From positions 11,336 to 75,335 of the forward strand of contig CAZEMP010000001.1 in NCBI GenBank assembly GCA_964513515.1: DNA of 64,000 nucleotides, read 5' to 3'. Below the pieces are notes generated by a model. It did not search any database and was not told the origin of the DNA. It worked only from the letters and a program-made list of their open reading frames with translations. The position numbers and the translations under genes were made by a program. The stretch is from an uncultured Candidatus Saccharibacteria bacterium (GTDB taxonomy: Bacteria > Patescibacteriota > Minisyncoccia > Phycocordibacterales > GWA1-40-21). This document shows, one piece after another, positions 19,396 to 38,559 of this stretch (positions are counted from its first letter, which is position 1; every line of letters starts with the position of its first letter).

Positions 19396-19845
19396 CTACA
19401 CACGGGACACCGTCCTTATGTAGAGATTTCCGGAAAATCTCCCGATGACATACTTTGTCATAACGAGAGAATTTTCTGACAGTGTGTTAAAGAACTTTTT
19501 TGAGACTGACACGCTGTCTTGCTTACCATCAAGCCTCACCCACACAGACCAGTTGGCTGGCTCGGTTACGAAGTGAGGCATGCTGGTTTTCGTGGCCGCA
19601 TTGGGTATTAGGATCATCTTAGTGTGTGATGGGGTGAACCTTTTTTTAACCACACGGCCCACTTTTCGACTCGGTTTCAGAAACCATGAGTCGAGTACTA
19701 AGAACAAACCTTCTAGGATGAGCCATATCGATATTAGGACGCTCACCAGTAGGATGATCATGACGATTGTGCCAAGAGGCCAATCGCAGATCCCCCATCT
19801 GATCATAGTCCACAGTTCGTTCAAGAAACTCATGATGTCCTCCAT
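19396..19845 (-). CDS. hypothetical membrane protein (G+C-richer island, gene 0)
   Basis: Annotated ORF extends to 19866 by a TTG start. The first ATG is at 19845, but a GGAGGA SD 4 nt upstream of a second ATG at 19833 favours the shorter start. Minus-strand promoter TTGACT-17-TACAAT at approx. 19885-19915; one TM helix. Confidence 0.4.
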   Translation of the reverse strand: MEDIMSFLNELWTMIRWGICDWPLGTIVMIILLVSVLISIWLILEGLFLVLDSWFLKPSRKVGRVVKKRFTPSHTKMILIPNAATKTSMPHFVTEPANWSVWVRLDGKQDSVSVSKKFFNTLSENSLVMTKYVIGRFSGNLYIRTVSRV

Positions 19846-19973
19846 AGGGTACGATTTACCACTCAATATTCACTCTATCAATTGTAACATACTAAATAAT
19901 AATAGTCAATATTTATGTATAATTAATAAATTTATTCTTTAAATTATAGTTTCATCGGTTTTTAAAAGTAGAA

Positions 19974-20001
19974 GAGCCCCTCCGTTGCCGGAGGGGCTCT
20001 C
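19974..20001 (-). terminator. hairpin AGAGCCCCTCCGTTGCCGGAGGGGCTCT (copy 1 of 2)
   Basis: 11-bp GC stem immediately downstream of minus gene 20023-20511; identical hairpin at 20608-20633. Confidence 0.6.
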
Positions 20002-20022
20002 TTGAATCCTAGAGCTGAAAGC

Positions 20023-20511
20023 TCAGGGATTTTTTTGTTCTTCTTCTTCGATGGCGACACCGGCGTACCACATGGTGTCTTCCCAGCCCACGTCGTTGCG
20101 AACGACGCAGACGAACCGTTCACCTTCCTTGGCATCACCCTTTGGCTTCTCCACGTAGAAGGTAGCGGAGCACCAGTTGCCGTTCTCATCCTGCCAGTGG
20201 GTAGTGTTCGGCCTGGTGTCGATCAGATGCGGATCTTCCTCATTCTTGGCAGCGAGCGAGTACGGATCGGCAGGCACGAGCCCCCGCTTCGCATACTCCA
20301 CATCCGCCGTTTCGTGTGTGAGGAATTTGCCTGGACAGAAAAGGTGGATTTTGACTTTATCCCCCTTTCCTCTCGGCATCTTCGCGACAACCTCGTCGGT
20401 CGTGAGTTTCCTCAGACCAGTCGCATCGAGTGCCTCATGTGGCGATCTCGAACGAATGACCGGGACTTCGTAGACTTCTTCCATCATCGTATTGATCTGG
20501 CCTCCCATCAT
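20023..20511 (-). CDS. hypothetical protein (G+C-richer island, gene 1)
   Basis: 162 aa; minus-strand promoter TTGATA-17-TATAGT and SD TAGGAGAGGTGA 7 nt upstream of ATG; no recognisable family. Confidence 0.45.
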   Translation of the reverse strand: MMGGQINTMMEEVYEVPVIRSRSPHEALDATGLRKLTTDEVVAKMPRGKGDKVKIHLFCPGKFLTHETADVEYAKRGLVPADPYSLAAKNEEDPHLIDTRPNTTHWQDENGNWCSATFYVEKPKGDAKEGERFVCVVRNDVGWEDTMWYAGVAIEEEEQKNP

Positions 20512-20607
20512 GCGTCGTCACCTCTCCTAGAATAAAAAATTACTGCAGAGAACATTTCTGGAAAACTATACACTTTATATTTGTATATATCAAGAGATTA
20601 AAAGAAT

Positions 20608-20633
20608 GAGCCCCTCCGTTGCCGGAGGGGCTC
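20608..20633 (-). terminator. hairpin GAGCCCCTCCGTTGCCGGAGGGGCTC (copy 2)
   Basis: Identical to 19974-20001; downstream of minus gene 20647-21093. Confidence 0.6.
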
Positions 20634-20646
20634 TCTGAACTCTTAG

Positions 20647-21093
20647 CTACTTTTTTACACCAATATAGCGATAAAGATCGCTCCAGTAGCTTGAGACAAA
20701 TACGTCTAGACAGAGAGCACGTTTCTCTGCACTACCAGTTAGATAGGCAGCGGAGCACTCTTTGCTGTATCCGAGAGAAACAATCGGGAATTTCTTTTGT
20801 AGATTTGGCTTTTGGGTAGCCAGACTCAAAAGATCCCAGAATGAACCAGGCATGTACGCTACCTTATCCATTTGAGCCCGAACCTCATCTCGAAACATAT
20901 TTTTATCGAAGTGGAAAAGTGCGATTTCTTTCTTCACCACCTTCGCATTACTTGATCGGGGAAAGTTTTGTTGATCAATTTTGCTATCTATCCAATCAAA
21001 CCTCCCCAATCGCACAGCATCTTCCACTTCTATCGTCTCATCGACCAAAAGAGTGAAAGTTTCCATCGTATAGCCGATCACCCTGTCGGTCAT
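20647..21093 (-). CDS. hypothetical protein (G+C-richer island, gene 2)
   Basis: 148 aa; SD AACGAGGTGAAG upstream; candidate promoter TTGTGA-17-TATTAT; no recognisable family. Confidence 0.45.
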   Translation of the reverse strand: MTDRVIGYTMETFTLLVDETIEVEDAVRLGRFDWIDSKIDQQNFPRSSNAKVVKKEIALFHFDKNMFRDEVRAQMDKVAYMPGSFWDLLSLATQKPNLQKKFPIVSLGYSKECSAAYLTGSAEKRALCLDVFVSSYWSDLYRYIGVKK

Positions 21094-29417: not shown

Positions 29418-32400
29418 TTAGTATTCTGACTCACTCTCGAGTTTCTGTTGTACCTCATCTATCATTTCGAATTTCTTACTGCCAGGAAAACCTGTACCTG
29501 CAGGAATAATTCTACCGATAATAACGTTTTCTTTTAGACCAGCTAAGTGATCCTCTGTTCCCTTTATGGCAGCATTAATAAGAATTCTTGTTGTGTGTTG
29601 GAATGAAGCGGCTGAAACGAAGCTTCTGCTTGATAGAGATGATTCTGTGATACCCATAACTAATAGTTTTGTTTGAATAGGTTCACCCTTATTTTCTTTT
29701 ATCTTCTCATTCTCTAATTTCAAATCTAGCTCATCTATAATATCTCCAATGCTAAAATCTGAAGATCCTGAATCTACCACAGATTTCATAGAGAACATTT
29801 GCTTCACTATGATCTCAATGTGTTTTCTAGCAACGGCAGCACCTTGAAGCTCGTAAGGCTTGCTAACTTCAGTAATAATGTATTCCAAAGCTTTCTGCTT
29901 TCCTGCTAATTCAAAATATTCATCTATATCTACAGATCCATCAGTAAGGATTTGTCCTTTTGTGATCTTTTCATGTTGTTTTACAAACACAATTCTTTTT
30001 GGATTGAATACATATTCAATTTCACCTGATTTCTTTGATTTACCTTTATCTTCCAAATCTGGAATAACAGTTATGATTTTCTCCTTTCCAAAATCTTTTA
30101 CAGAAGAGACTGTTCCGTTTACTGTGGCCACGATTGCTGGTGTCTTCGGCTTTCTCTTTTCGAATATTTCTTCAACACGAGGCAAACCTTGAGTAATATC
30201 TCCACCTGCTGATGCGGCTCCTCCAGAGTGGAAGGTTCTCATTGTAAGCTGAGTTCCTGGTTCTCCGATAGCTTGTGCAGCGATGGTTCCTACAGCTTCT
30301 CCCAAGTCGATTAATTCTCCACGTCCAAGATCCATTCCGTAACAGTTTGAACAAATACCATGAAGTGTTTTACATACAAGTGGTGATCTGACAGCGACAT
30401 TTTCTACTTCCAATTTATCTATATTTTGTGCATCAATTTTTGTAAGAAGTACGCCTTTTTTATAAACCACCTTTCCATCTTTTCCAACAACATCTTCGGC
30501 AAGTATTCTACCTCTAATGTTTTTAGCAACAGAAGATCCTGTATCTTTTCCTACATTTCTGCTGATCACGATACTTTCTTTTGTACCACAATCATGTTCC
30601 TTGATAACTATATCTTGTGCAACAGAGAAAAGTTTTCTTGTAAGATAACCTGCTTTTGCGGTGTTAAGGGCAGTATCTGTAAGACCTTTTCTTGAACCGT
30701 GAGTGGTAATGAAGTATTCAATCGGTGTAAGACCTTCTTTTGATGAATTAATAACTGGGAATTCAATAGTATCTCCAATGGTGTTTTGAATCATACCTTT
30801 CATACCAGCCATCTGAGCAAGTGATCCTAGAGATCCTCTAGCTCCAGATTTCCACATATCATTTACAGAACCATTTTTATCTAGCGAAGTTGGAATAAGT
30901 TTCTCTAATTGACCTTTTGCATCTTGCCAGATCTCAATATTCTTTCTTATTCTCTCTTCTTCTATAAGAAGACCTTCATTAAATTGTTCCATCACCTGTA
31001 CAGATTCACTTCTAGCTTTCTTGATAATTCCATCCTTTTCTTGTGGAACTTGTATATCATCTATTCCCCAGGTTACTCCAGAAATTGTAGCGTATTTGAA
31101 TCCAAAATTTTTGATCTTGTCCATAATAGGAGCAACTTTGTGTGGTCCGTGTTGAACGATAAGATCGTCTATAATCTTCTTTAGCTCTTTGTTATCAATT
31201 TCTTTGTTTACGTAAGGATAATCTTCTGGAAGAACACCGTTAAACAAAAGTCTTCCAACCGTTGTTTCAAAAAGTTTACCTCCAAATTGCTTATATTTAA
31301 TTTTCTCTGATGGCAAGACTTTTATTTTTGTTCTAAATCCTACTATACCAAAGTCTCTTGCTGTAATAGCAGCATTTTTTGATTGGAAATATTTTCCTTC
31401 ACCATTTTCTCCCTCAATGATTTTTGTCATCCAGTAACATCCAAGTACGATGTCCAAAAGTTTTGAAGAAATTGTTGGATCTCCATCTCCTGGTTTTAGA
31501 ATGTTTTTATCAGAAGCCATTATTTCTTTTGCCTCCATTTGTGCTTCTTCGCCTAGCGGTACGTGAACTGCCATCTGGTCTCCGTCGAAGTCTGCGTTGA
31601 ATGCAGTACATACTAGAGGGTGCACTTGAATAGCATTTCCTTCAATAAGAATAGGGCGGAATGCTTGAATACCAAGTCTGTGAAGAGTAGGCGCTCTGTT
31701 TAAGAGAACATATTTATCTTTAATTATTTCTTCAAGTATTGCCCAAACTTCTTGTGCGCCATCATCTATAAGTCTTCCTGCACCACGAATATTATAAGCA
31801 AGCTCTTTTTTCAAAAGTTGTGAAATAACGAATGGGCGGAAAAGCTCAAGTGCCATACGTTTCGGAAGTCCACATTGATCCATATCTAATTCTGGACCAA
31901 CGACGATAACAGATCTACCAGAGTAGTCTACGCGCTTACCCAAAAGGTTTTGTCTAAACAAACCCCTCTTTCCTTTCAAGTTGTCAGCCAAAGATTTCAA
32001 AGGTCTCTTATTTGAAGCAGAACCCATAGCAGAAAATAGTGCATTACCATGTCTGATCGAGTTGTCTATAAGTGCATCTACAGCTTCTTGAAGAATTCTT
32101 TTTTCATTTCTCAAAATTACGTCTGGAGCGTTTATTTCTTTAAGCTTTAGAAGTCTGTTGTTTCTATTTATAACTCTTCTGTAAAGATCGTTTACATCTG
32201 AAGTTGCAAATCTTCCTCCATCAAGCGGAACCATAGGTCTCAAAGCCGGTGGAATGACTGGAATCTTTGTAAGGAACATCCATTCTGGTCTAGATTTTGA
32301 AGCGATCATTGATCTTATCAAACTCAATCTCTTGTTGAGCTTCTCTGTATCTGCGGAGTTAGATTTTTCAAGTGCAGTTAATATTTTCTTTTCTAAATCT

Positions 32401-33092
32401 TCTAGATTTATTTTCTTCAATATTTCATATATCACTTCTCCTCCAATACCTGCTTCAAATACAGATCCGTATTTTATAGAAAACTTATGATATGTGGTCT
32501 CATCGAGAACTTTTCCTTCTGATATTCCCTCAACTTCTTTCTTTGCATTGAGAGCCATTTCTTTTAGGGCCTCTTTTGTTTTCTCATCTGTAACGGTTTT
32601 TACTTTATTCTTGAATTCATTTTCTATTTCTTTAAGTACCCTGTCTTTTTCTGCTTGGAAAGTCTTTACAATAATATATCCTGCAAAGTAAATAACCTTT
32701 TCAAGATCTGATACAGACATACCCATAACAGCACCTAGTCTTGATGGAATTCCTCTCAAAAACCAAATGTGAGATACAGGTGAAGATAGGTCTATGTGGC
32801 CCATTCTTTCTCTTCTTACTATGGATCTTGTTATTTCAACTCCACACTTTTCACAAATAATTCCTTTATATCTTATACCTTTGTATTTTCCGCAGTAACA
32901 CTCGTAGTCCTTATCTGGTCCGAATATTTTTTCATCGAAAAGTCCGCCCCTTTCAGATCTTTGGGTTCTGTAGTTGATTGTTTCTGGCTTTGTAACTTCA
33001 CCGTGTGACCATTTTGCTACCACTTCTGGTGATGCGACATGGATAGATATTACATTGAAGTTTTGATCTTGTGATTGTTTCGTTTTAATCAT
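29418..33092 (-). CDS. rpoC: DNA-directed RNA polymerase subunit beta'
   Basis: 1224 aa; NADFDGD catalytic motif, Zn-binding CYCGKYK..CEKCG. Confidence 0.95.
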   Translation of the reverse strand: MIKTKQSQDQNFNVISIHVASPEVVAKWSHGEVTKPETINYRTQRSERGGLFDEKIFGPDKDYECYCGKYKGIRYKGIICEKCGVEITRSIVRRERMGHIDLSSPVSHIWFLRGIPSRLGAVMGMSVSDLEKVIYFAGYIIVKTFQAEKDRVLKEIENEFKNKVKTVTDEKTKEALKEMALNAKKEVEGISEGKVLDETTYHKFSIKYGSVFEAGIGGEVIYEILKKINLEDLEKKILTALEKSNSADTEKLNKRLSLIRSMIASKSRPEWMFLTKIPVIPPALRPMVPLDGGRFATSDVNDLYRRVINRNNRLLKLKEINAPDVILRNEKRILQEAVDALIDNSIRHGNALFSAMGSASNKRPLKSLADNLKGKRGLFRQNLLGKRVDYSGRSVIVVGPELDMDQCGLPKRMALELFRPFVISQLLKKELAYNIRGAGRLIDDGAQEVWAILEEIIKDKYVLLNRAPTLHRLGIQAFRPILIEGNAIQVHPLVCTAFNADFDGDQMAVHVPLGEEAQMEAKEIMASDKNILKPGDGDPTISSKLLDIVLGCYWMTKIIEGENGEGKYFQSKNAAITARDFGIVGFRTKIKVLPSEKIKYKQFGGKLFETTVGRLLFNGVLPEDYPYVNKEIDNKELKKIIDDLIVQHGPHKVAPIMDKIKNFGFKYATISGVTWGIDDIQVPQEKDGIIKKARSESVQVMEQFNEGLLIEEERIRKNIEIWQDAKGQLEKLIPTSLDKNGSVNDMWKSGARGSLGSLAQMAGMKGMIQNTIGDTIEFPVINSSKEGLTPIEYFITTHGSRKGLTDTALNTAKAGYLTRKLFSVAQDIVIKEHDCGTKESIVISRNVGKDTGSSVAKNIRGRILAEDVVGKDGKVVYKKGVLLTKIDAQNIDKLEVENVAVRSPLVCKTLHGICSNCYGMDLGRGELIDLGEAVGTIAAQAIGEPGTQLTMRTFHSGGAASAGGDITQGLPRVEEIFEKRKPKTPAIVATVNGTVSSVKDFGKEKIITVIPDLEDKGKSKKSGEIEYVFNPKRIVFVKQHEKITKGQILTDGSVDIDEYFELAGKQKALEYIITEVSKPYELQGAAVARKHIEIIVKQMFSMKSVVDSGSSDFSIGDIIDELDLKLENEKIKENKGEPIQTKLLVMGITESSLSSRSFVSAASFQHTTRILINAAIKGTEDHLAGLKENVIIGRIIPAGTGFPGSKKFEMIDEVQQKLESESEY

Positions 33093-33124: not shown

Positions 33125-36100
33125 TTATTTCTCATCACTTAATTTTTCATTCTTGAGTTCGACATTGAGTCCTAGACCTCTCAAGCTGTTAAGTAATACG
33201 TTAAACGAAGCGGGTAGATTTGGTTGTTTTATTCTTTCTCCTTTTACTATTGAGTCGAACGCAGCGGATCTTCCAATAATATCGTCAGACTTAATCGTGA
33301 GCATTTCTCTTAGTGTATATGAAGCTCCATATCCAAGCAGTGCCCACACCTCCATTTCTCCGAATCTCTGTCCTCCTCCTTGTGCTCTTCCTCCCAAAGG
33401 TTGCTGTGTGATCATTGAGTAAGGTCCGATAGATCTCATGTGTATCTTGTCTTCTACCTCGTGGTGAAGTTTCAATATATACATGTAACCAACAGAAATC
33501 TTTTGCTCATAAGGAAGACCATTTCTTCCATCAAAGAGTTTCATTTTTCCATCAGATTCATATCCTGCTTTTACTAATTCTTCTTTAATTTCTTTATCTG
33601 TTGCTCCCATAAATGGCGGAACAATAGCTTGATAATCTAGTGAGTTTGCAGCAAGTCCTAAGTGAACTTCAAGAATCTGTCCGAGGTTCATACGGCTAGG
33701 AACGCCAAGTGGTGTAAGAATAATATCTACAGGTGTTCCATCTTCCATATATGGCATATCTTCTACTGGCAATATTCTAGAGATAACACCTTTGTTTCCG
33801 TGTCTTCCTGCGAGTTTGTCTCCAACAGAAATATTTCTTAGTTGAGCAATCTCAATGTGAATTCTTTTTATGATTCCTGATTCTAACTTATCTCCATTTT
33901 CTCTTGAAAAGATTTTTACAGAAATAATCCTTCCTCTCTTTCCACTCTCAAGTCTCTTTGATGTATCTTTTACATCACGAGCTTTTTCTCCGAATATAGA
34001 TCTCAAAAGTCTTTCTTCTGGAGTAAGTTGCGTTTCTCCTTTTGGTGTAATCTTACCCACCAAAATATCTCCTGCAGTTACTTCTGCTCCAATTCTCACT
34101 ATTCCATCATCATCCAAGTTCTTTAGTTTTACTTCTCCAACGTTTGGAATGTCGCGGGTTGTAACTTCCGGTCCGAGTTTGGTATCGCGAACATTTACTT
34201 GAATTTCTTCAATGTGAATAGATGAGAATTTGCTATTTTTTACCAATCTTTCAGAAAGAATAATAGCGTCTTCGTAGTTTGATCCGCTCCATGTCATGAA
34301 AGCCACAAGAGCGTTTTGACCGATAGCCATTTCTCCATTCACAGAAGATGATGTATCCGCCAATAATTCACCTTTCTTTACTTTTTGTCCCAAATTAACA
34401 GATGGTCTTTGGTGGAATGGTGTAAATCCGTTTGTTCTAGAAAAGCTTACTAGTTTGTATTCTTTTTCTTTTCCTGTTTTTGCTGATTTAACTTTTATAC
34501 TTCTTGCGTCTACAGCTGTAACGGTTCCTTCTTCTTCAGAATAAATAACTCTACCTGTGTAGCGTGCAGCTTCCGCTTCAATGCCTGTTGCAACGAGTGG
34601 AGCTTCAGGAATAACACAAGGAACAGCTTGTTTTTGCATGTTTGTTCCCATCAGCGCTCTTGTTGCATCGTCGTGGTTTAAGAAAGGCATAAGAGATGTA
34701 GCAATAGAGAATGCTTGGTTTGCAGCAACGTCTATAAGGTCCACTTCTTCTCTCTTAACCATTTTTGGTTCTCCGTTTACACGAACTTCAACTTCATCTT
34801 CTGTTATTCTTCCGCTTTTATCGTACGCTGTTCCTCCGTGTGCAATCTTGTGGTTTTCTTCTTCAACAGCATTAAAATATTTTATTTCTTTTGTGATGAC
34901 TCCATTTTTTACTTTCGCATACGGTGTTTCTATCATTCCAAAATCATTGATCTTTGCATATGTAGAAAGGTGCAAGATAAGACCAATGTTTTGACCTTCT
35001 GGTGTGTGAATAGGACATACTCTTCCGTAGTGTGTTGGGTGAACGTCACGAACTTCAAAGCCCGCTCTTTCACGAGTCAAACCTCCAGGACCAAGAGCAG
35101 AAAGAGTTCTCAAGTGTTCGATCTCTTCAAGAATGTTCACCTGTTGCATAAACTGTGACATTTGGCTTGTGGTAAAGAATTCTTTTATTCTTGCTTGAAG
35201 TGGTCTTGTAGAAACAAATTGTACTGGCATTTTTATGTCAGGATCTACAGTAGACATTCTATCTTGAATGTTTCTTTTCATTTGAGCCATACCCACACGA
35301 ACTTTTTGTTGAAGAAGTTCTCCCACGAAACGAACTCTTCTTGAACCCAAATGATCTATATCATCTTCTTTTGCTTCAGGATCATTGTTAAGTTCTACAA
35401 TCTTTTTAATTATTATTATAAAATCTTCAAGAGAAATATCTTTTTTCTCCAAAGTTTTGTCATCTGTAGGTAGATCGAATCTCTTGTTAAATTTTGATCT
35501 TCCTACTTTTGAAATATCGTATCTTTCTGCAGAGAAGATAGATTGAACATGTTGTTTTGCGTTTTCAAGTGCTGCAAGATCTCCGTCTCTCAATCTCTTA
35601 TAAACTTCAAGATAAGAATCGTCTTGATTTTTTGCATGATCTTTAAGAATAGTTGTTTCTATTACTTTCAATGCTTCGGCATCATCTTTGAAAAGTGTTG
35701 TTATATCTTTATCTGTTTTGGCACCAAAAATTCTAAGAAGTGAGGAAATCGCAAACTTTCTCTTCTTGTCTATTTTTACATATATAGCTCCATCAGATTC
35801 TGATTCTATCTCTATCCATGAACCTCTTGCTGGAATGATCTTTGCTCCAAATAAATTTTTACCTTTTAAATCGTTTAAGGTAAAAAATATTCCGTATGAT
35901 CTTGCAAGTTGAGGAATAACAACTCTTTCAATACCGTTTATAATAAAGGTCCCATGGTTTGTCATGAGAGGAACATCTGAGAAGAATATTTCTTGTTCAT
36001 TTTCTGTACCCAGCGCCTTGTTTTTTAGTTTTACTTTTGCTTTTAATTGTCCTTCGTAAGAAATTTTCTTTTCTTTAGACTGGAATTCATCGTACTTTGC

Positions 36101-36340
36101 TTCGCCTACTTCAAAACCAGTAAAAGACAATTCAAACTTTTTGTTTGCATAATCTTTGATAGGGGAAAATTCTTTAAATACTTCTGCGATACCTTCTTTC
36201 AAAAGCCATTGGTATGACTTCATCTGGTGGTCTACCAAGTTGGGTGTATCTATAAGAGGCTCTTTGTATTTACTAAAATATTTCTTTTTTAGCTCTCCTC
36301 CAGTGACACCATCTGTCAAAATATTTGCGGGTTTATTCAT
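33125..36340 (-). CDS. rpoB: DNA-directed RNA polymerase subunit beta
   Basis: 1071 aa; conserved RpoB blocks (GEMEVWAL, NGIERVV). Confidence 0.95.
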   Translation of the reverse strand: MNKPANILTDGVTGGELKKKYFSKYKEPLIDTPNLVDHQMKSYQWLLKEGIAEVFKEFSPIKDYANKKFELSFTGFEVGEAKYDEFQSKEKKISYEGQLKAKVKLKNKALGTENEQEIFFSDVPLMTNHGTFIINGIERVVIPQLARSYGIFFTLNDLKGKNLFGAKIIPARGSWIEIESESDGAIYVKIDKKRKFAISSLLRIFGAKTDKDITTLFKDDAEALKVIETTILKDHAKNQDDSYLEVYKRLRDGDLAALENAKQHVQSIFSAERYDISKVGRSKFNKRFDLPTDDKTLEKKDISLEDFIIIIKKIVELNNDPEAKEDDIDHLGSRRVRFVGELLQQKVRVGMAQMKRNIQDRMSTVDPDIKMPVQFVSTRPLQARIKEFFTTSQMSQFMQQVNILEEIEHLRTLSALGPGGLTRERAGFEVRDVHPTHYGRVCPIHTPEGQNIGLILHLSTYAKINDFGMIETPYAKVKNGVITKEIKYFNAVEEENHKIAHGGTAYDKSGRITEDEVEVRVNGEPKMVKREEVDLIDVAANQAFSIATSLMPFLNHDDATRALMGTNMQKQAVPCVIPEAPLVATGIEAEAARYTGRVIYSEEEGTVTAVDARSIKVKSAKTGKEKEYKLVSFSRTNGFTPFHQRPSVNLGQKVKKGELLADTSSSVNGEMAIGQNALVAFMTWSGSNYEDAIILSERLVKNSKFSSIHIEEIQVNVRDTKLGPEVTTRDIPNVGEVKLKNLDDDGIVRIGAEVTAGDILVGKITPKGETQLTPEERLLRSIFGEKARDVKDTSKRLESGKRGRIISVKIFSRENGDKLESGIIKRIHIEIAQLRNISVGDKLAGRHGNKGVISRILPVEDMPYMEDGTPVDIILTPLGVPSRMNLGQILEVHLGLAANSLDYQAIVPPFMGATDKEIKEELVKAGYESDGKMKLFDGRNGLPYEQKISVGYMYILKLHHEVEDKIHMRSIGPYSMITQQPLGGRAQGGGQRFGEMEVWALLGYGASYTLREMLTIKSDDIIGRSAAFDSIVKGERIKQPNLPASFNVLLNSLRGLGLNVELKNEKLSDEK

Positions 36341-36439
36341 TCTGTTTTTTTAATAAAAATTTATAAATATACAGCCAGTAAAATTTCTATATCTCACACA
36401 AAAAAATAAATACGATTTGTTGATTTTTGTCACAAGCAA

Positions 36440-36500
36440 AAATCAAAATTTAAAAAACAAAAAAAGAATCCCCTTCCCCAAAAGGATTATTTATTTTTTA
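36440..36500 (-). promoter_or_regulatory. terminator-like hairpin (AATCCTTTTGGGGAAGGGGATT + U-run) inside the rpoB 5' leader: candidate attenuator
   Basis: Lies between candidate rpoB promoter (minus strand TTGACA-17-TATATT, plus coords 36601-36629) and the rpoB start at 36340. Confidence 0.4.
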
Positions 36501-36704
36501 TTAAATTTTTAACTTATTTTTCTAAGCAAGATATTCGCAACTTAATCTAGCCTACTATTGGCACTTCCGCCCAGAACTCATTCGTTGTAAAGTTATTAAT
36601 AATATAGACTAAGTAGCCGATTATGTCAACTATATTACGTATTGACTTTGCTTATTACTCGTGTCAATCTTTTATTGGAGTCAAATCACCCTCTGGGGGC
36701 AAAA

Positions 36705-37133
36705 ATGAACTTAGTAAGAGTCATTCTTCTTGCCCTGTCTAAACACCAGGGTAAGCCGGTCGTAATACCGGTGATTGTTTTGAAGGTCAGATATTCCCTC
36801 GAGATGATGGGCTATATCAGACAAAATCCTGAGATTCAGAAGTTGAGGGAGATAGGTTGGTCTGAAGAGCGTATCGAGAGAAGGATCGATCGGGACCTGC
36901 CACAAAAGGTTAGGATGGTTTTGCCGAAGCTCGCAATGAGCGGTCGGGCAAAACCCTTCTATCTTTCAAAACTTCGAAAGATCGCCAGTGGGTCGGAGAA
37001 GAAGTTCAGAGAGTTGGTTACGAGATCTGGTGTTGTTTTCACCGATTCAAGCCAACTCGATAGTTCGCAGACTGCCTATCAGATCACAAGCAAAGGTCTG
37101 AGATGGTGGCTGAAACACAAAAATCTTCCCTAA
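36705..37133 (+). CDS. hypothetical protein, paralog P1 (G+C-richer)
   Basis: ORF track starts at 36642 (TTG); ATG at 36705 preceded by CTGGGGGCAAAA, same context as paralog P2. Followed by hairpin terminator 37159-37196. Confidence 0.45.
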   Translation: MNLVRVILLALSKHQGKPVVIPVIVLKVRYSLEMMGYIRQNPEIQKLREIGWSEERIERRIDRDLPQKVRMVLPKLAMSGRAKPFYLSKLRKIASGSEKKFRELVTRSGVVFTDSSQLDSSQTAYQITSKGLRWWLKHKNLP

Positions 37134-37158
37134 AAAGAAGATGTGGCCGTATAGGCCA

Positions 37159-37196
37159 GAAGCCCGCAGGAAGGTAACACTTCCCTGCGGGCTTTC
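37159..37196 (+). terminator. terminator GAAGCCCGCAGGAAGGTAACACTTCCCTGCGGGCTTTC (copy 1)
   Basis: 14-bp stem + T-rich tail; near-identical copy at 37699-37735. Confidence 0.6.
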
Positions 37197-37275
37197 TGCT
37201 TTTAAAAAACTAGACTTTATTTTTATAAAGTATATAGTTGTCTCGAATTTGTACACAAACAACTTGGGGGTAAAA

Positions 37276-37692
37276 ATGGATGCGGAAGAAACAGTTCTCG
37301 TCTTATTGAATAGGCATGGTAGCAAACCGATGCCCTGTTCAAATCTGCTGGTGCAGGCAGCTTGTCTTTCTGATGAGATCAACTGTGAGGCACGGAGGAA
37401 AAAAGATCAGTTGAGAAGCCTGGGGTATTCAGAAAAACTGATTCAGGAGATCGTAGATTTGCATAGTCACAGGACTGTGCAAACTACTCTCGATCTTTTA
37501 GAGAAGAAAGGGCTCATCGTGGGGAGACAGAACGAGCAGAAACTTCTTCGCGACATTGAACATTTAAACCTGAAGATTCTTCCGAGTGTCATGGAGCAAC
37601 TCAGGATCAATCTTCTCTCCTACAAGCTTACCAAGAACGGTTTACAAAAGCTGTGGGAGAAAGCCGCAAGAACACAGGGTTCAGATCATTGA
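37276..37692 (+). CDS. hypothetical protein, paralog P2 (G+C-richer)
   Basis: Homologous to P1 along full length (..LLNRHGSKPMP.. vs ..LLALSKHQGKPVV..; ..YKLTKNGLQKLWEK vs ..YQITSKGLRWWLKH); SD-like TTGGGGGTAAAA before ATG. Confidence 0.45.
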   Translation: MDAEETVLVLLNRHGSKPMPCSNLLVQAACLSDEINCEARRKKDQLRSLGYSEKLIQEIVDLHSHRTVQTTLDLLEKKGLIVGRQNEQKLLRDIEHLNLKILPSVMEQLRINLLSYKLTKNGLQKLWEKAARTQGSDH

Positions 37693-37698
37693 ACCAAA

Positions 37699-37735
37699 GA
37701 GCCCGCAGGAAGGTAACACCTCCCTGCGGGCTTTC
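37699..37735 (+). terminator. terminator GAGCCCGCAGGAAGGTAACACCTCCCTGCGGGCTTTC (copy 2)
   Basis: Duplicate of 37159-37196 with one loop substitution. Confidence 0.6.
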
Positions 37736-37758
37736 TGCTTATAAATAAAATTGCAAAC

Positions 37759-37783
37759 AAAAAACCGCTTTCGCGGTTTTTTG
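37759..37783. terminator. bidirectional terminator AAAAAACCGCTTTCGCGGTTTTTTG
   Basis: Convergent to RRM gene on minus strand. Confidence 0.5.
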
Positions 37784-37803
37784 TTTTTAGAGTTGTTTTG
37801 AGA

Positions 37804-38070
37804 TTAGTATCTGCTTGGTCTCTCTTCTCTTGGTCTTGCTTCGTTGACGGTCAATTTTCTTCCATCAAGCTCCTTACCATTCCACATTTCTATAGCTGCT
37901 TTTGCACCTTCTTCGGTTGCCATTTCGACGAATCCGAATCCTTTTGATCTACCTGTCATTTTGTCCATGATGATAGCTACTGATGCAACTTCTCCTGCTT
38001 TAGAAAAAGCTTCTGATAATGCGTTCTCTGTAGTGCTATAAGAAACACCACCTACATATAATTTCTTCAT
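37804..38070 (-). CDS. RRM-domain RNA-binding protein (RNP-1/RNP-2)
   Basis: LYVGGVSY (RNP-2) and KGFGFVEM (RNP-1) motifs. Confidence 0.75.
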   Translation of the reverse strand: MKKLYVGGVSYSTTENALSEAFSKAGEVASVAIIMDKMTGRSKGFGFVEMATEEGAKAAIEMWNGKELDGRKLTVNEARPREERPSRY

Positions 38071-38221
38071 TCTTTATATATTACTCAAACCTAATAAACT
38101 TTAAGACCTAACTTGAAACGAAAGACGACTAATCCTTACAAAATCAACTTACTTCTTAATTACTACGATTATAGTTTAAATCTCTATTAATGTCAATGTA
38201 AGTAAAATATAAATAGGAAGG

Positions 38222-38250
38222 GCCTGTTACGCTTCGCGTAACAGGCCCTC
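38222..38250 (-). terminator. hairpin GGGCCTGTTACGCTTCGCGTAACAGGCCC
   Basis: 12-bp stem immediately downstream of minus gene 38257-38559. Confidence 0.55.
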
Positions 38251-38256
38251 ACTCAC

Positions 38257-38559
38257 CTAACCAAAGAACTTGATCATCTCCTTTCCGCCACAACCCGTGC
38301 TGTTCCTCCTGTCGCTCTTATAGGAAAGGGTTATTTCAACCTTTCCTTTTAAAACGACGAACCCTTTTTTCACATCGAGATGTAAGCCGAAACCCGTGAA
38401 GGTTCTGCAGACATTTCTGAGATGCTCGTCTCTTTTAAGACGGTCAAGAAGTAGGAACCCCTCCTTTTTTCGGTCCTTGTCTAGCCAGCAAATGCCGTAC
38501 TCCGAAAGTTCATCCTTGAGTCTAAGTACGATCACCTTTTCAGCTTCCCTTCCTAGCAT
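38257..38559 (-). CDS. hypothetical protein (G+C-richer single-gene cassette)
   Basis: 100 aa; minus-strand promoter TTGCAG-17-TATAAA and SD GGGGTGA; no family recognised. Confidence 0.35.
   Translation of the reverse strand: MLGREAEKVIVLRLKDELSEYGICWLDKDRKKEGFLLLDRLKRDEHLRNVCRTFTGFGLHLDVKKGFVVLKGKVEITLSYKSDRRNSTGCGGKEMIKFFG

What the first reader, a model, noticed from the sequence alone, without database searches (positions are those of the whole stretch)
36642..37745. Tandem paralog pair P1/P2 with identical terminators in the rpoB upstream region
P1 (36705-37133) and P2 (37276-37692) are about 140-aa paralogs that can be aligned end to end. Both have the same SD/start context (TGGGGG(C/T)AAAAATG), and both are followed by the same 14-bp-stem terminator GCCCGCAGGAAGGTAACAC(T/C)TCCCTGCGGGC (37159-37196, 37699-37735). 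The N-terminal pattern (LLALSKHQGKPV / LLNRHGSKPMP) suggests a winged-helix-like domain. The pair sits divergently from the rpoB promoter, an odd place for a duplicated accessory gene.
Basis: seen in the sequence. Interest (0 to 1): 0.6.

Follow-up and report, generated by a model that had tools for sequence, protein, structure and literature searches.

The report
Paired orphan winged-helix-like genes beside rpoB
Two neighbouring small genes next to the RNA polymerase genes of an uncultured Patescibacteria bacterium are real, anciently diverged copies of a very rare family of basic, winged-helix-like proteins. Each is a self-contained promoter-gene-terminator unit sitting in a variable insertion slot, which makes the pair a modest curiosity rather than a new kind of system.

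Summary
P1 (36705-37133) and P2 (37276-37692) are true paralogs: 24-26% identity, shuffle z about 7, and similarity only in the shared reading frame. Each has a GGGGG ribosome-binding site and is followed by a 49-nt module that is 94% identical and contains a strong terminator hairpin.

They belong to a tiny unnamed family. A full HMMER search of 1.84 billion protein representatives found only 7 other members, and I found one more on locus L083. Where DNA is available, all come from a narrow Paceibacteria clade and lie convergent with an RRM-protein gene. Relatives carry one copy, a P1-type plus P2-type pair (L083), unrelated genes, or nothing (L068) between the rpoB promoter and the RRM terminator. 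The duplication is therefore old and the slot is variable.

AlphaFold gives a confident model (pLDDT 94): a winged-helix-like core with two helical insertions. It has no significant structural or profile match. All members are basic.

The two terminators share paired insertions in both stem arms that four orthologous hairpins lack, so they were homogenised within this genome, most simply by gene conversion.

GC3 is 0.50-0.54 against 0.23 for normal genes. Other orphan small genes in the window share this trait. The function, probably nucleic-acid binding and regulation, is inferred and not shown.

The parts
36601..36629 (-). rpoB promoter-like site (TTGACA-17-TATATT). It marks the left edge of the variable slot.
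   Evidence: scores it 11 of 12. The -35 position is conserved in relatives and in the empty site of L068.
36642..36647 (+). Possible -35 box (TTGACT) for P1. There is no convincing -10, so the P1 promoter is not securely located.
   Evidence: Read directly from the sequence. The promoter scan did not list it. L083 has TTGACA at the equivalent place.
36695..36699 (+). Shine-Dalgarno GGGGG of P1, 5 nt before the ATG.
   Evidence: Homologues have GGAGG or GGGGG at the same spacing.
36705..37133 (+). P1, 142 aa, pI 10.6. It is the P1-type member of the family.
   Evidence: AlphaFold model with pLDDT 94.3. GC3 0.54, z 8.4.
37144..37158 (+). Short hairpin A (TGGCCGTATAGGCCA) directly after the P1 stop codon.
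   Evidence: Similar hairpins follow P0006 (L083), P0009 (L086) and the 77-aa ORF of L012.
37159..37209 (+). Hairpin B copy 1 plus T-rich tail. This is the intrinsic terminator of P1 and one copy of the 49-nt repeat.
37211..37238 (+). P2 promoter-like site (TAGACT-16-TATAGT).
   Evidence: scores it 9 of 12. It is conserved upstream of the P2-type genes of L081 and L083.
37266..37270 (+). Shine-Dalgarno GGGGG of P2.
37276..37692 (+). P2, 138 aa, pI 8.8. It is the P2-type member. The public 183-aa call from ATG 37141 is probably over-extended, because it would run through the P1 terminator.
   Evidence: The N-termini of P0005 and L083 P2b start at the same MD... position. GC3 0.51 over the 138 codons without the stop, z 7.5.
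37695..37748 (+). Hairpin B copy 2 plus T-rich tail. This is the intrinsic terminator of P2.
37755..37786 (.). Perfect 14-bp hairpin that terminates the convergent RRM gene. It marks the right edge of the variable slot.
   Evidence: The equivalent hairpin lies about 35 nt from the rpoB -35 box in the empty site of L068.
37804..38070 (-). RRM_1 RNA-binding protein gene. It is the constant convergent neighbour of family members. It is context only, with native composition.
   Evidence: Pfam E 2.3e-22. The same arrangement occurs in L081, L082, L084/L085 and L086.
38257..38559 (-). ORF3, 100 aa. It belongs to a second high-GC3 orphan family that co-occurs with P-family genes. It is a possible partner, but this is unproven.
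   Evidence: GC3 0.54. An HMM built from L082 and L086 homologues hits ORF3 at E 1e-3, L086 o121 at 3e-7 and L001 at 2e-33. Terminator hairpin at 38218-38250.

Best explanation
P1 and P2 are two real, separately transcribed genes. Each has an SD sequence and its own intrinsic terminator. P2 also has a promoter conserved in other genomes, whereas P1 has only a possible -35 box.

They encode anciently diverged paralogs of a very small, clade-restricted family of basic 130-166 aa proteins. The predicted fold is a winged-helix core interrupted by two helical insertions: one before the long recognition-type helix and one inside the wing.

The most likely function is sequence- or structure-specific nucleic-acid binding. 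I favour small transcription regulators, with P1-type and P2-type either acting on different sites or acting as a pair.

The units sit in a variable slot between the rpoBC promoter and the terminator of a convergent RRM gene. In anatomy they resemble phage 'morons', which are autonomous promoter-ORF-terminator units of deviant base composition added between genes that are adjacent in relatives.

The terminator hairpin came with the gene family. The two copies in this genome were later homogenised, most simply by short-tract gene conversion.

Shown:
- the ORFs code for protein
- paralogy
- family size and distribution
- synteny
- the age of the pair
- a confident fold model
- basic charge
- shared derived changes in the two hairpins
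- deviant GC3

Inferred:
- the winged-helix assignment
- nucleic-acid binding
- a regulatory role
- gene conversion as the homogenising mechanism
For: Coding and paralogy:
- establish the similarity and its frame specificity.
- Between orthologues pN (0.27-0.46) is well below pS (0.73-0.89).

Family:
- A profile search of 1.84e9 representatives returns 9 proteins in total, matched end to end.
- A tenth member lies on L083.
- The alignment has invariant L8, L11, P18, S31, L76, Y125 and T128.

Old pair:
- P2 is 61% identical to L083 P2b and 39% to P0005, against 25% to P1. P1 is 40% identical to P0006.
- L083 carries a P1-type gene and then a P2-type gene next to the rpoB leader.

Variable slot:
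- One copy in L084/L085 and L086.
- No copy in 80 GTDB relatives or in 10 metagenome loci anchored on the RRM gene.
- Other genes occupy the gap in L003-L015.
- The site is empty in L068.

Fold:
- pLDDT 94.3, pTM 0.86.
- The top Foldseek lists are winged-helix proteins.
- Weak profile hints: LexA_DNA_bind, HTH_11, HTH_45, WH_III-A.
- hhalign lines up the helix and wing strands with a canonical 77-aa winged-helix-like ORF that occupies the same slot in L012, skipping the wing insert.
- pI is 8.7-10.6 in all members.

Terminators:
-.
- Both window copies share a 2-nt and a 3-nt insertion, one in each stem arm, that L081, L082, L084 and L086 lack.

Composition:
- GC3 0.54 and 0.51 against 0.226 +/- 0.038 in 47 normal ORFs.
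- GC3 is also high in homologues: 0.35-0.54, against 0.20-0.29 for their neighbours.

The definition of a moron is taken from PMC3594210.
Against: - No structural match reaches significance: best Foldseek E is 0.65 in the PDB and 0.28 in BFVD, with TM at most 0.48.
- No profile match reaches any curated cut-off.
- The insertion between the second helix and the long helix would disrupt a canonical helix-turn-helix, so DNA binding in the classical mode is not assured.
- No conserved operator was found. The inverted repeat in the P2-type promoter spacer is AT-rich and could be chance.
- The P1 promoter is not well defined.
- No expression data exist.
- Gene conversion is inferred from six sequences only, and selection for one optimal hairpin cannot be excluded.
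- The moron analogy is anatomical only. No phage genes, integrase or viral relatives were found.
Confidence: 0.55

Rival explanations
1. The pair is cargo of a mobile or phage-derived element, for example repressor-like or Rep-like winged-helix proteins of a decayed prophage or integrative element. It was acquired horizontally from a donor with higher GC and has no role in host physiology.
For: - GC3 z of 7.5-8.4.
- The genes are orphans.
- The slot is variable among close relatives.
- A GIY-YIG gene sits between the two paralogs in L083.
- There are weak PHROG hits to phage replication initiators.
- The units have moron-like anatomy.
Against: - There is no integrase, transposase or flanking repeat.
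- No relatives occur in IMG/VR, INPHARED phages, PHROGs or PADLOC.
- Family members keep the same position and neighbour in genomes whose rpoB and M23 genes differ by dS above 1. Their own synonymous sites are saturated, so they have resided there for a long time and yet kept high GC3.
- GC1 and GC2 are like those of native genes.
Confidence: 0.15
2. P1 and P2 are RNA-binding proteins that recognise stem-loops, in particular the conserved hairpin at the 3' end of their own mRNAs. That would give autoregulation of mRNA stability or termination. They might act together with the neighbouring RRM protein.
For: - The hairpin B sequence, including the loop GGTAAYAC or GGTGATAC, is kept in four genomes and is only partly recognisable in a fifth, L084. 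The proteins meanwhile diverged to 25-40% identity and genomic dS exceeds 1.
- ROQ domains, which are extended winged helices that bind RNA stem-loops, appear among the Foldseek hits (ranks 12, 13, 23, 33).
- The genes always lie convergent with an RRM gene.
- The proteins have a basic pI.
Against: - The ROQ matches are non-significant: E 2.4-3.9, TM about 0.3.
- The hairpin plus T-tail is a perfectly ordinary intrinsic terminator.
- P0006 in L083 has only hairpin A and no hairpin B.
- The whole RRM-proximal region is unusually conserved, with RRM dS 0.09-0.13. Hairpin conservation may therefore reflect regional low divergence.
Confidence: 0.15
3. The ORFs are not genes. The GC-rich segment is a structured non-coding RNA or chance open frames in GC-richer DNA.
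For: - The segment is GC-rich in an AT-rich genome.
- There is no annotated family.
- A 111-aa antisense ORF (37047-37382) shows that long chance ORFs can occur here.
Against: - Similarity exists only in the shared frame.
- The profile finds full-length homologues in other genomes.
- pN is below pS.
- Synonymous third-position changes are visible in the conserved motif.
- AlphaFold gives pLDDT 94 from only 9 sequences.
- Rfam gives no match.
Confidence: 0.02
4. The pair is a toxin-antitoxin or anti-phage defence module, possibly together with ORF3.
For: - The genes are small, fast-evolving and patchily distributed in a variable slot.
- They co-occur with a second orphan family.
Against: - The two genes are homologous to each other and separately transcribed, unlike TA pairs.
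- There is no PADLOC or Pfam toxin or antitoxin match.
- Single-copy loci without ORF3 exist (L084).
Confidence: 0.05

Closest known systems
Small winged-helix transcription regulators (PadR, MarR, ArsR types)
   Same: - The size is about 100-150 aa and the charge is basic.
- The N-terminal pattern is a helix, then G-K-P, then a helix.
- The pattern (K/R)V...L..L.K.GL is followed by wing strands ending in Y.(I/L)T..G.
- These proteins dominate the Foldseek lists.
- A regulator gene divergent from another promoter is a common arrangement (established knowledge).
   Different: - No significant profile or fold match.
- About 25 residues (two short helices) are inserted before the long helix, and about 35 residues (three helices) are inserted in the wing.
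- No ligand or dimerisation features were identified.
- The targets are unknown.
Phage 'morons': autonomous promoter-ORF-terminator units of deviant GC content inserted between genes that are adjacent in relatives (PMC3594210)
   Same: - P2 has its own conserved promoter, and each gene has its own SD sequence and strong terminator. P1 has only a possible -35 box.
- GC3 deviates strongly.
- rpoB and the RRM gene are adjacent in L068, and other relatives carry other inserts.
   Different: - The units are located in a core chromosomal region, not a prophage.
- There are no viral relatives.
- They have been resident long enough for synonymous saturation between orthologues.
Roquin ROQ domain (extended winged helix that binds RNA stem-loops)
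   Same: - It is a winged helix with extra helical elements.
- It appears in the Foldseek list.
- A conserved stem-loop sits at the 3' end of the P-family mRNAs.
   Different: - ROQ is a eukaryotic family (my own knowledge).
- The match is non-significant (E above 2, TM about 0.3).
- There is no evidence of RNA binding.
Concerted evolution of short non-coding segments between tandem paralogs by gene conversion
   Same: The 49-nt 3' modules are 94% identical and share derived indels, while the coding regions are 24-26% identical at the protein level and group with orthologues in other genomes.
   Different: The tract would be very short and limited to the terminator. No population data are available to show conversion events.

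Membership tests
Winged helix-turn-helix superfamily | Three-helix core followed by a beta-hairpin wing (H1-S1-H2-T-H3-S2-W-S3), recognisable by fold comparison. | tested here: inconclusive
Winged helix-turn-helix superfamily | A significant match to a curated winged-helix or HTH profile. | tested here: not met
   The best matches are LexA_DNA_bind E 0.019 (15.2 bits, cut-off 23.7), HTH_11 E 0.053, HTH_45 E 0.27 and PADLOC WH_III-A E 0.0028, each for a single member only. The PDB profile search found nothing significant.
Winged helix-turn-helix superfamily | Binds DNA (or RNA) through the recognition helix and wing. | not testable with these tools
   The only indirect evidence is pI 8.7-10.6 in all members.
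MarR or PadR family regulators | A Pfam MarR or PadR domain match and the family's dimerisation helices. | tested here: not met
   None of the 9 members scanned matches the Pfam MarR or PadR domains at E up to 1. Structural alignments to 5dym, 6pcp and 7kfq have TM 0.39-0.43 and E above 1.
Rho-independent (intrinsic) terminator | A GC-rich stem-loop immediately followed by a T-rich tract, just downstream of a stop codon. | tested here: met
   The stems have about 15 pairs and fold at -35.5 and -28.7 kcal/mol, z -4.7 and -5.4. The tails are TTTCTGCTTTT and TTTCTGCTTAT. The hairpins start 26 and 3 nt after the stop codons. Orthologous hairpins carry T-tails in L081, L082, L084 and L086. Termination activity itself is not testable here.
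Dispersed repeat (REP or MITE-like element) | Many copies scattered through the genome, independent of a particular gene family. | tested here: not met
   There are only two copies in 64 kb at up to 3 mismatches, both directly after P-family genes. The same hairpin follows orthologues in other genomes. The rest of the genome was not available.
Integron gene cassettes with attC sites | An intI integrase nearby, promoterless cassettes, and attC sites with the conserved R and L core sites (GTTRRRY). | tested here: not met
   No integrase-like ORF was noticed when inspecting the ORFs of 33-42 kb; only some of these were scanned against Pfam. P2 has a conserved promoter of its own. By inspection the hairpin flanks contain no GTTRRRY core. 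No dedicated attC model was run.
Phage moron | An autonomous promoter-ORF-terminator unit with deviant composition, absent from the same position in related genomes, and located in a phage genome. | tested here: not met
   The first three features are met. The last is not, because the context is chromosomal (rpoBC, RRM, M23 peptidase) and there are no viral relatives. This is an analogy, not membership.
P-family (the unnamed family defined here) | 130-166 aa, an end-to-end match to the profile, and invariant L8, L11, P18, S31, L76, Y125 and T128. | tested here: met
   P1 and P2 match at 8e-72 and 1e-65 by construction. The independent members match at 1.7e-16 to 1.8e-5.

The most novel reading that the evidence does not exclude
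P1, P2 and ORF3 may be one instance of a genome-wide class of fast-evolving orphan small genes in this Patescibacteria lineage.

The members are often tandem paralogs. Each is an insulated unit with a long GC-rich terminator. Their synonymous sites are driven towards G/C: GC3 is 0.45-1.00 in a genome where normal genes have 0.23, while GC2 stays native-like.

That pattern would point to a special selective or mutational regime on these genes rather than simple import from a high-GC donor. Candidate regimes are protection of the mRNAs from an A/U-specific endoribonuclease, rare-codon control of translation, or GC-biased conversion in paralog arrays.

On this reading the winged-helix-like P proteins could be the regulators of such a class.
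Probability: 0.15. Interest if true: 0.7.

Novelty: new variant of a known kind. Interest (0 to 1): 0.35.

Why it matters
Patescibacteria (CPR) genomes are small and full of unannotated small proteins. This case defines one such family precisely:
- its members
- a confident fold model
- its conserved neighbourhood
- its two subtypes

It also shows a concrete insertion slot next to the rpoBC promoter where accessory units come and go.

If the proteins are regulators, they would be among the few lineage-specific transcription or RNA-binding factors proposed for this clade. Their position back to back with the rpoBC promoter would make them candidates for tuning polymerase expression.

The discordance between diverged coding regions and homogenised terminators is a clean small example of concerted evolution of a non-coding element.

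The persistent high GC3, shared with other orphan genes of the same genome, is unexplained. It may be the more valuable lead.

Tried and rejected
- **Family libraries.** Pfam, PHROGs, NCBIfam and PADLOC scans of P1, P2 and all family members found no family.
- **Word-seeded searches.** Searches of 5.8 billion proteins returned only the queries themselves. Repeating with the 9-sequence profile recovered only 4 known members.
- **Viral and phage searches.** Scans of viral contigs with P1 and with P2, and tblastn against INPHARED phages, found nothing.
- **Hairpin pattern scan.** A degenerate hairpin pattern in viral contigs gave 89 hits. None lies next to a family member, so the pattern is too loose.
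- **RRM-anchored scan.** A scan of JGI metagenomes anchored on the RRM gene gave 10 related loci, none with the family.
- **Non-coding RNA reading.** Rejected.
- **REP-like repeat and integron attC readings.** Rejected.
- **ORF3 as a third paralog.** Rejected: it has no similarity to P1 or P2. It belongs to a different co-occurring family.
- **Cassette replacement.** I considered the idea that family members in different genomes are swapped alleles between identical flanks. The surrounding genomes are themselves diverged (rpoB dS 1.1, M23 dS 1.5), so fast ordinary divergence is sufficient.
- **GC3 = 1.00 neighbour gene.** tblastn against phages and plasmids found no match.
- **Literature.** Searches for high-GC3 genes in Patescibacteria found nothing relevant.
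Full report
**1. What is in the sequence**

The window is AT-rich (GC 0.347). It carries rpoC (29418-33092) and rpoB (33125-36340) on the minus strand. Two ORFs lie to the right of rpoB on the plus strand.

- P1 runs from 36705 to 37133 (142 aa). P2 runs from 37276 to 37692 (138 aa).
- Each is preceded by TGGGGG(C/T)AAAAATG.
- Each is followed by a copy of a 49-nt repeat, at 37161-37209 and 37700-37748, that is 94% identical.
- The 31-nt hairpin core occurs only at these two places in 64 kb, even when 3 mismatches are allowed, and never in 100 shuffles.
- As RNA the two regions fold into stems of about 15 pairs, at -35.5 and -28.7 kcal/mol (z -4.7 and -5.4). T-rich tails follow, which is the anatomy of intrinsic terminators.
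- A short extra hairpin (37144-37158) sits between the P1 stop codon and its main hairpin.
- A promoter-like site, TAGACT-16-TATAGT, lies at 37211-37238 in front of P2.
- A strong promoter-like site for rpoB lies at 36629-36601 on the minus strand. It is back to back with a possible TTGACT -35 box for P1 at 36642.
- Downstream of P2 a convergent RRM_1 gene (37804-38070, Pfam E 2.3e-22) ends in its own perfect 14-bp hairpin at 37755-37786.

**2. Are P1 and P2 real paralogous genes?**

Yes.

- BLASTP gives 26% identity over 81 residues, E 1e-4.
- MAFFT aligns them end to end at 24% identity, with a shared C-terminal Y.(I/L)T..GL..W.K motif.
- The global alignment score is 58, against 13.1 +/- 6.1 for 2000 shuffles, and no shuffle reaches it. 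The 17 other frame combinations score at most 34, against 63, and are full of stop codons.
- At the DNA level the coding regions are nearly saturated, while several conserved residues differ only at third codon positions.
- Between orthologues in other genomes, non-synonymous differences (pN 0.27-0.46) are well below synonymous ones (pS 0.73-0.89).
- Rfam finds nothing here at gathering thresholds. At E up to 1 it gives only seven sub-threshold chance matches around the P2 and RRM terminator hairpins.

The non-coding reading is therefore rejected.

The public 183-aa call for P2 starts at ATG 37141 and would run through the P1 terminator. Homologues start at the MD... position of the 138-aa form.

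**3. The family**

Word-seeded searches of 5.8 billion proteins found only the queries themselves. A full HMMER search with the P1/P2 profile against 1.84 billion representatives found seven further proteins. They are 130-166 aa, score E 1.7e-16 to 1.8e-5, and are matched end to end. A tenth member, cut by a contig end, lies on L083.

The alignment has invariant L8, L11, P18, S31, L76, Y125 and T128. All members are basic, with pI 8.7-10.6. No Pfam, NCBIfam, PHROG or PADLOC family matches above its cut-off.

Three subtypes are visible:
- P2-type: P2, L083 P2b at 61% identity, and P0005 at 39%.
- P1-type: P1, with P0006 and P0007 each at 40%.
- A single-copy type: P0008, P0009 and P0010.

**4. 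Host and neighbourhood**

The N-terminus of rpoB finds relatives only among Patescibacteria (Paceibacteria, Parcubacteria, Taylorbacteria-like MAGs), at up to 92% identity.

Family members for which DNA is held lie in the same place.
- L084/L085: rpoB, P0008, RRM, M23 peptidase.
- L086 and L082: an ORF3-like gene, the P gene, then RRM.
- L081: P0005, then RRM.
- L083: the rpoB leader, P0006 (P1-type), a GIY-YIG gene on the other strand, then a P2-type gene.

The P1-type plus P2-type pair therefore predates the split of these genomes. It is not a recent local duplication.

None of 80 GTDB relatives and none of 10 RRM-anchored metagenome loci has a family member. In the close relatives the rpoB-RRM gap measures 320-2440 nt. 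It holds a Cys-rich secreted protein, an aminopeptidase-like gene, a canonical 77-aa winged-helix-like ORF (L012), or nothing. In L068 the RRM terminator lies about 35 nt from the rpoB -35 box.

The segment between the rpoB promoter and the RRM terminator is thus a variable insertion slot.

**5. Fold**

With only two sequences AlphaFold was unconvincing (pLDDT 65). With the nine-sequence alignment it gave pLDDT 94.3 and pTM 0.86.

The order of elements is:
- helix 3-12
- a short strand
- helix 21-29
- two short helices (32-40, 42-49)
- a long helix 54-78
- strand 82-86
- three helices (87-93, 98-108, 116-120)
- strand 123-127
- a C-terminal helix

I read this as a winged-helix core with one insertion before the long helix and a helical insertion in the wing.

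Foldseek against the PDB and BFVD gives no significant hit (best E 0.65 and 0.28, TM at most 0.48). The lists are nevertheless dominated by PadR, MarR, ArsR, ORC, forkhead, MukE and ROQ winged helices.

The PDB profile search gives only hints. Residues 1-43 resemble a short winged-helix-like chain, and residues 64-126 resemble RosR. hhalign lines up the (K/R)V...L..L.K.GL helix and the Y.IT..G strands with the L012 mini-protein, skipping the wing insert.

**6. The 'identical terminators'**

Hairpin B is not private to this genome. Orthologous genes in L081, L082 and L086, and less clearly in L084, end with the same element: CCCGCGGAGGT(A/G)A(C/T)ACTCCGCGGG plus a T-tail.

Both window copies share a 2-nt insertion in the 5' arm and a 3-nt insertion in the 3' arm that lengthen the stem. 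All four orthologous hairpins lack these insertions.

The coding regions tell the opposite story, since P2 groups with P2-type genes of other genomes and not with P1. The simplest account is that the two 49-nt modules were homogenised within this lineage by short-tract gene conversion. Selection for one optimal hairpin cannot be excluded. The SD similarity is ordinary, because homologues have GGAGG or GGGGG at the same spacing.

**7. Composition**

Forty-seven ordinary ORFs of the window have GC3 of 0.226 +/- 0.038. P1, P2 and ORF3 have 0.54, 0.51 and 0.54 (z 7.5-8.4), while their GC1 and GC2 are like those of native genes.

Homologues in other genomes are also high (0.35-0.54), next to neighbours at 0.20-0.29. 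Between the window and L084, dS is 1.1 for rpoB and 1.5 for M23, and the P genes are saturated at synonymous sites. The high GC3 has therefore persisted over a long time. This fits poorly with a recent import that has not yet been ameliorated.

The same anomaly marks other orphan small genes of the window (section 10). I have no tested explanation for it.

**8. How it most likely works**

Each gene is an autonomous unit with an SD sequence, an ORF and a strong terminator. P2 also has a promoter that is conserved in other genomes, whereas the P1 promoter is not securely located.

The products are small basic proteins with a winged-helix-like core. I think nucleic-acid binding is the most likely activity and transcription regulation the most likely role. 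P1-type and P2-type genes are retained together in the two genomes where this can be assessed (the window and L083).

The back-to-back position with the rpoBC promoter invites the idea of control over rpoBC. However, relatives without the family have the same promoter and leader. Any such control would be an accessory layer.

The rivals are:
- RNA-hairpin binding and autoregulation
- mobile or phage cargo
- a defence or toxin-antitoxin module
- a non-coding element

They are weighed in the Rival explanations section. None has positive evidence beyond resemblance.

**9. Comparison with known systems**

[quoted passage not shown] They are chromosomal, though, and have no viral relatives.

In fold they resemble small winged-helix regulators but fail every profile test.

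They are best described as a new, very small family that is a variant of the winged-helix kind. Its function is unknown experimentally.

**10. Other things seen**

- Several other islands of orphan small genes with high GC3, mostly tandem paralogs with long GC-rich terminators, lie at 19396-21093, 48272-49450, 50731-52429 and 59992-60261. One gene (51452-51877) ends every codon in G or C. It has no phage or plasmid relatives.
- ORF3 (38257-38559) belongs to a second orphan family that co-occurs with P genes in L082, L086 and L001.
- The roughly 250-nt rpoB leader is strongly conserved in 16 distinct relatives. It contains a hairpin plus U-tract that looks like an attenuator, and it has no Rfam match.
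- The RRM gene has a dS about ten times lower than that of its neighbours.

**11. Verdict**

- The finding is a well-defined but functionally open case: a new variant of a known kind.
- Interest is moderate to low (0.35).
- The composition anomaly shared with other orphan genes is the lead most worth following.

Noticed in passing
window 50731-51135, 51452-51877, 51995-52429 (+): These are three tandem paralogous orphan genes (shared motifs ERF, QQEIEA, HW(Y/F)N) with extreme GC3. In the middle gene every one of 141 codons ends in G or C, in a genome with GC3 of about 0.23, while GC2 stays at 0.35. Each gene has a long GC-rich terminator hairpin. There is no Pfam family and no phage or plasmid relative. 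The long antisense ORFs here are by-products of the codon pattern.
   Followed up: partly
window 50630-50730 and 51340-51450 (+): A conserved leader of about 100 nt containing the hairpin GAGACGAGCTC...GAGCTCGTCTTAA lies upstream of the first two of those high-GC3 paralogs. It may be a cis-regulatory RNA. I did not analyse it.
   Followed up: no
window 19396-19866, 20023-20511, 20647-21093 (-); 48272-48778 and 48959-49450 (+); 59992-60261 (+): These are further small orphan ORFs with GC3 of 0.45-0.80 and no Pfam family. The pair at 48272 and 48959 are paralogs with signal peptides. About a fifth of the ORFs in this window show the anomaly, against about 3% in 20-kb loci of relatives.
   Followed up: partly
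window 38257-38559 (-), terminator hairpin 38218-38250: ORF3 (100 aa, GC3 0.54) belongs to a second orphan family with the motifs EYG(I/V).W and L.RL(K/R).(N/D)E.LRN.C. The family is found next to P-family genes in L082 and L086 and next to rpoB in L001. It may be a functional partner of the P family.
   Followed up: partly
window 36341-36600 (-), hairpin about 36465-36490: The rpoB 5' leader of about 250 nt is strongly conserved in 16 distinct relatives. It has a conserved 5' domain (…GGGCGUAAAGUGCC…UAGGCUAGAUUAAGUUGC…CUUGCUUAGAAAAAUAAG…) followed by a hairpin plus U-tract that varies in sequence among relatives and looks like a transcription attenuator. It has no Rfam match. rplJ and rplL are not upstream of rpoB here.
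   Followed up: partly
window 37804-38070 (-): The RRM_1 gene is 95-96% identical at the nucleotide level to relatives, with dS 0.09-0.13. In the same genome pair rpoB has dS 1.1 and the M23 peptidase 1.5. This indicates either unusual synonymous constraint or recent recombination of the RRM gene.
   Followed up: partly
window 37141-37692 (+): The public gene call for P2 is 183 aa, starting at ATG 37141. It reads through the P1 terminator and is probably over-extended. The SD sequence and the homologues support the 138-aa form starting at 37276. P1 is likewise called as 163 aa (TTG 36642) in one source.
   Followed up: yes
L083 1108-1353 (-): A small GIY-YIG gene (81 aa, native GC3 0.20) is inserted between the P1-type and P2-type genes of this related genome. 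There the P1-type gene has only the short hairpin-A type terminator.
   Followed up: no
L012, rpoB-RRM gap positions 417-647 (window orientation): A 77-aa ORF with a canonical winged-helix pattern (GC3 0.39) occupies the same slot in the same orientation. It has a similar SD context and a hairpin-A-like terminator. It is a possible minimal relative of the P family (hhalign E 9e-4, probability 23%).
   Followed up: partly
L003-L008 rpoB-RRM gaps: In other close relatives the slot holds a Cys-rich secreted protein of about 150 aa (motif GGDRD.HGC.GSAGYSWC). In some it also holds a 404-aa aminopeptidase-like gene. Both are on the rpoB strand.
   Followed up: no
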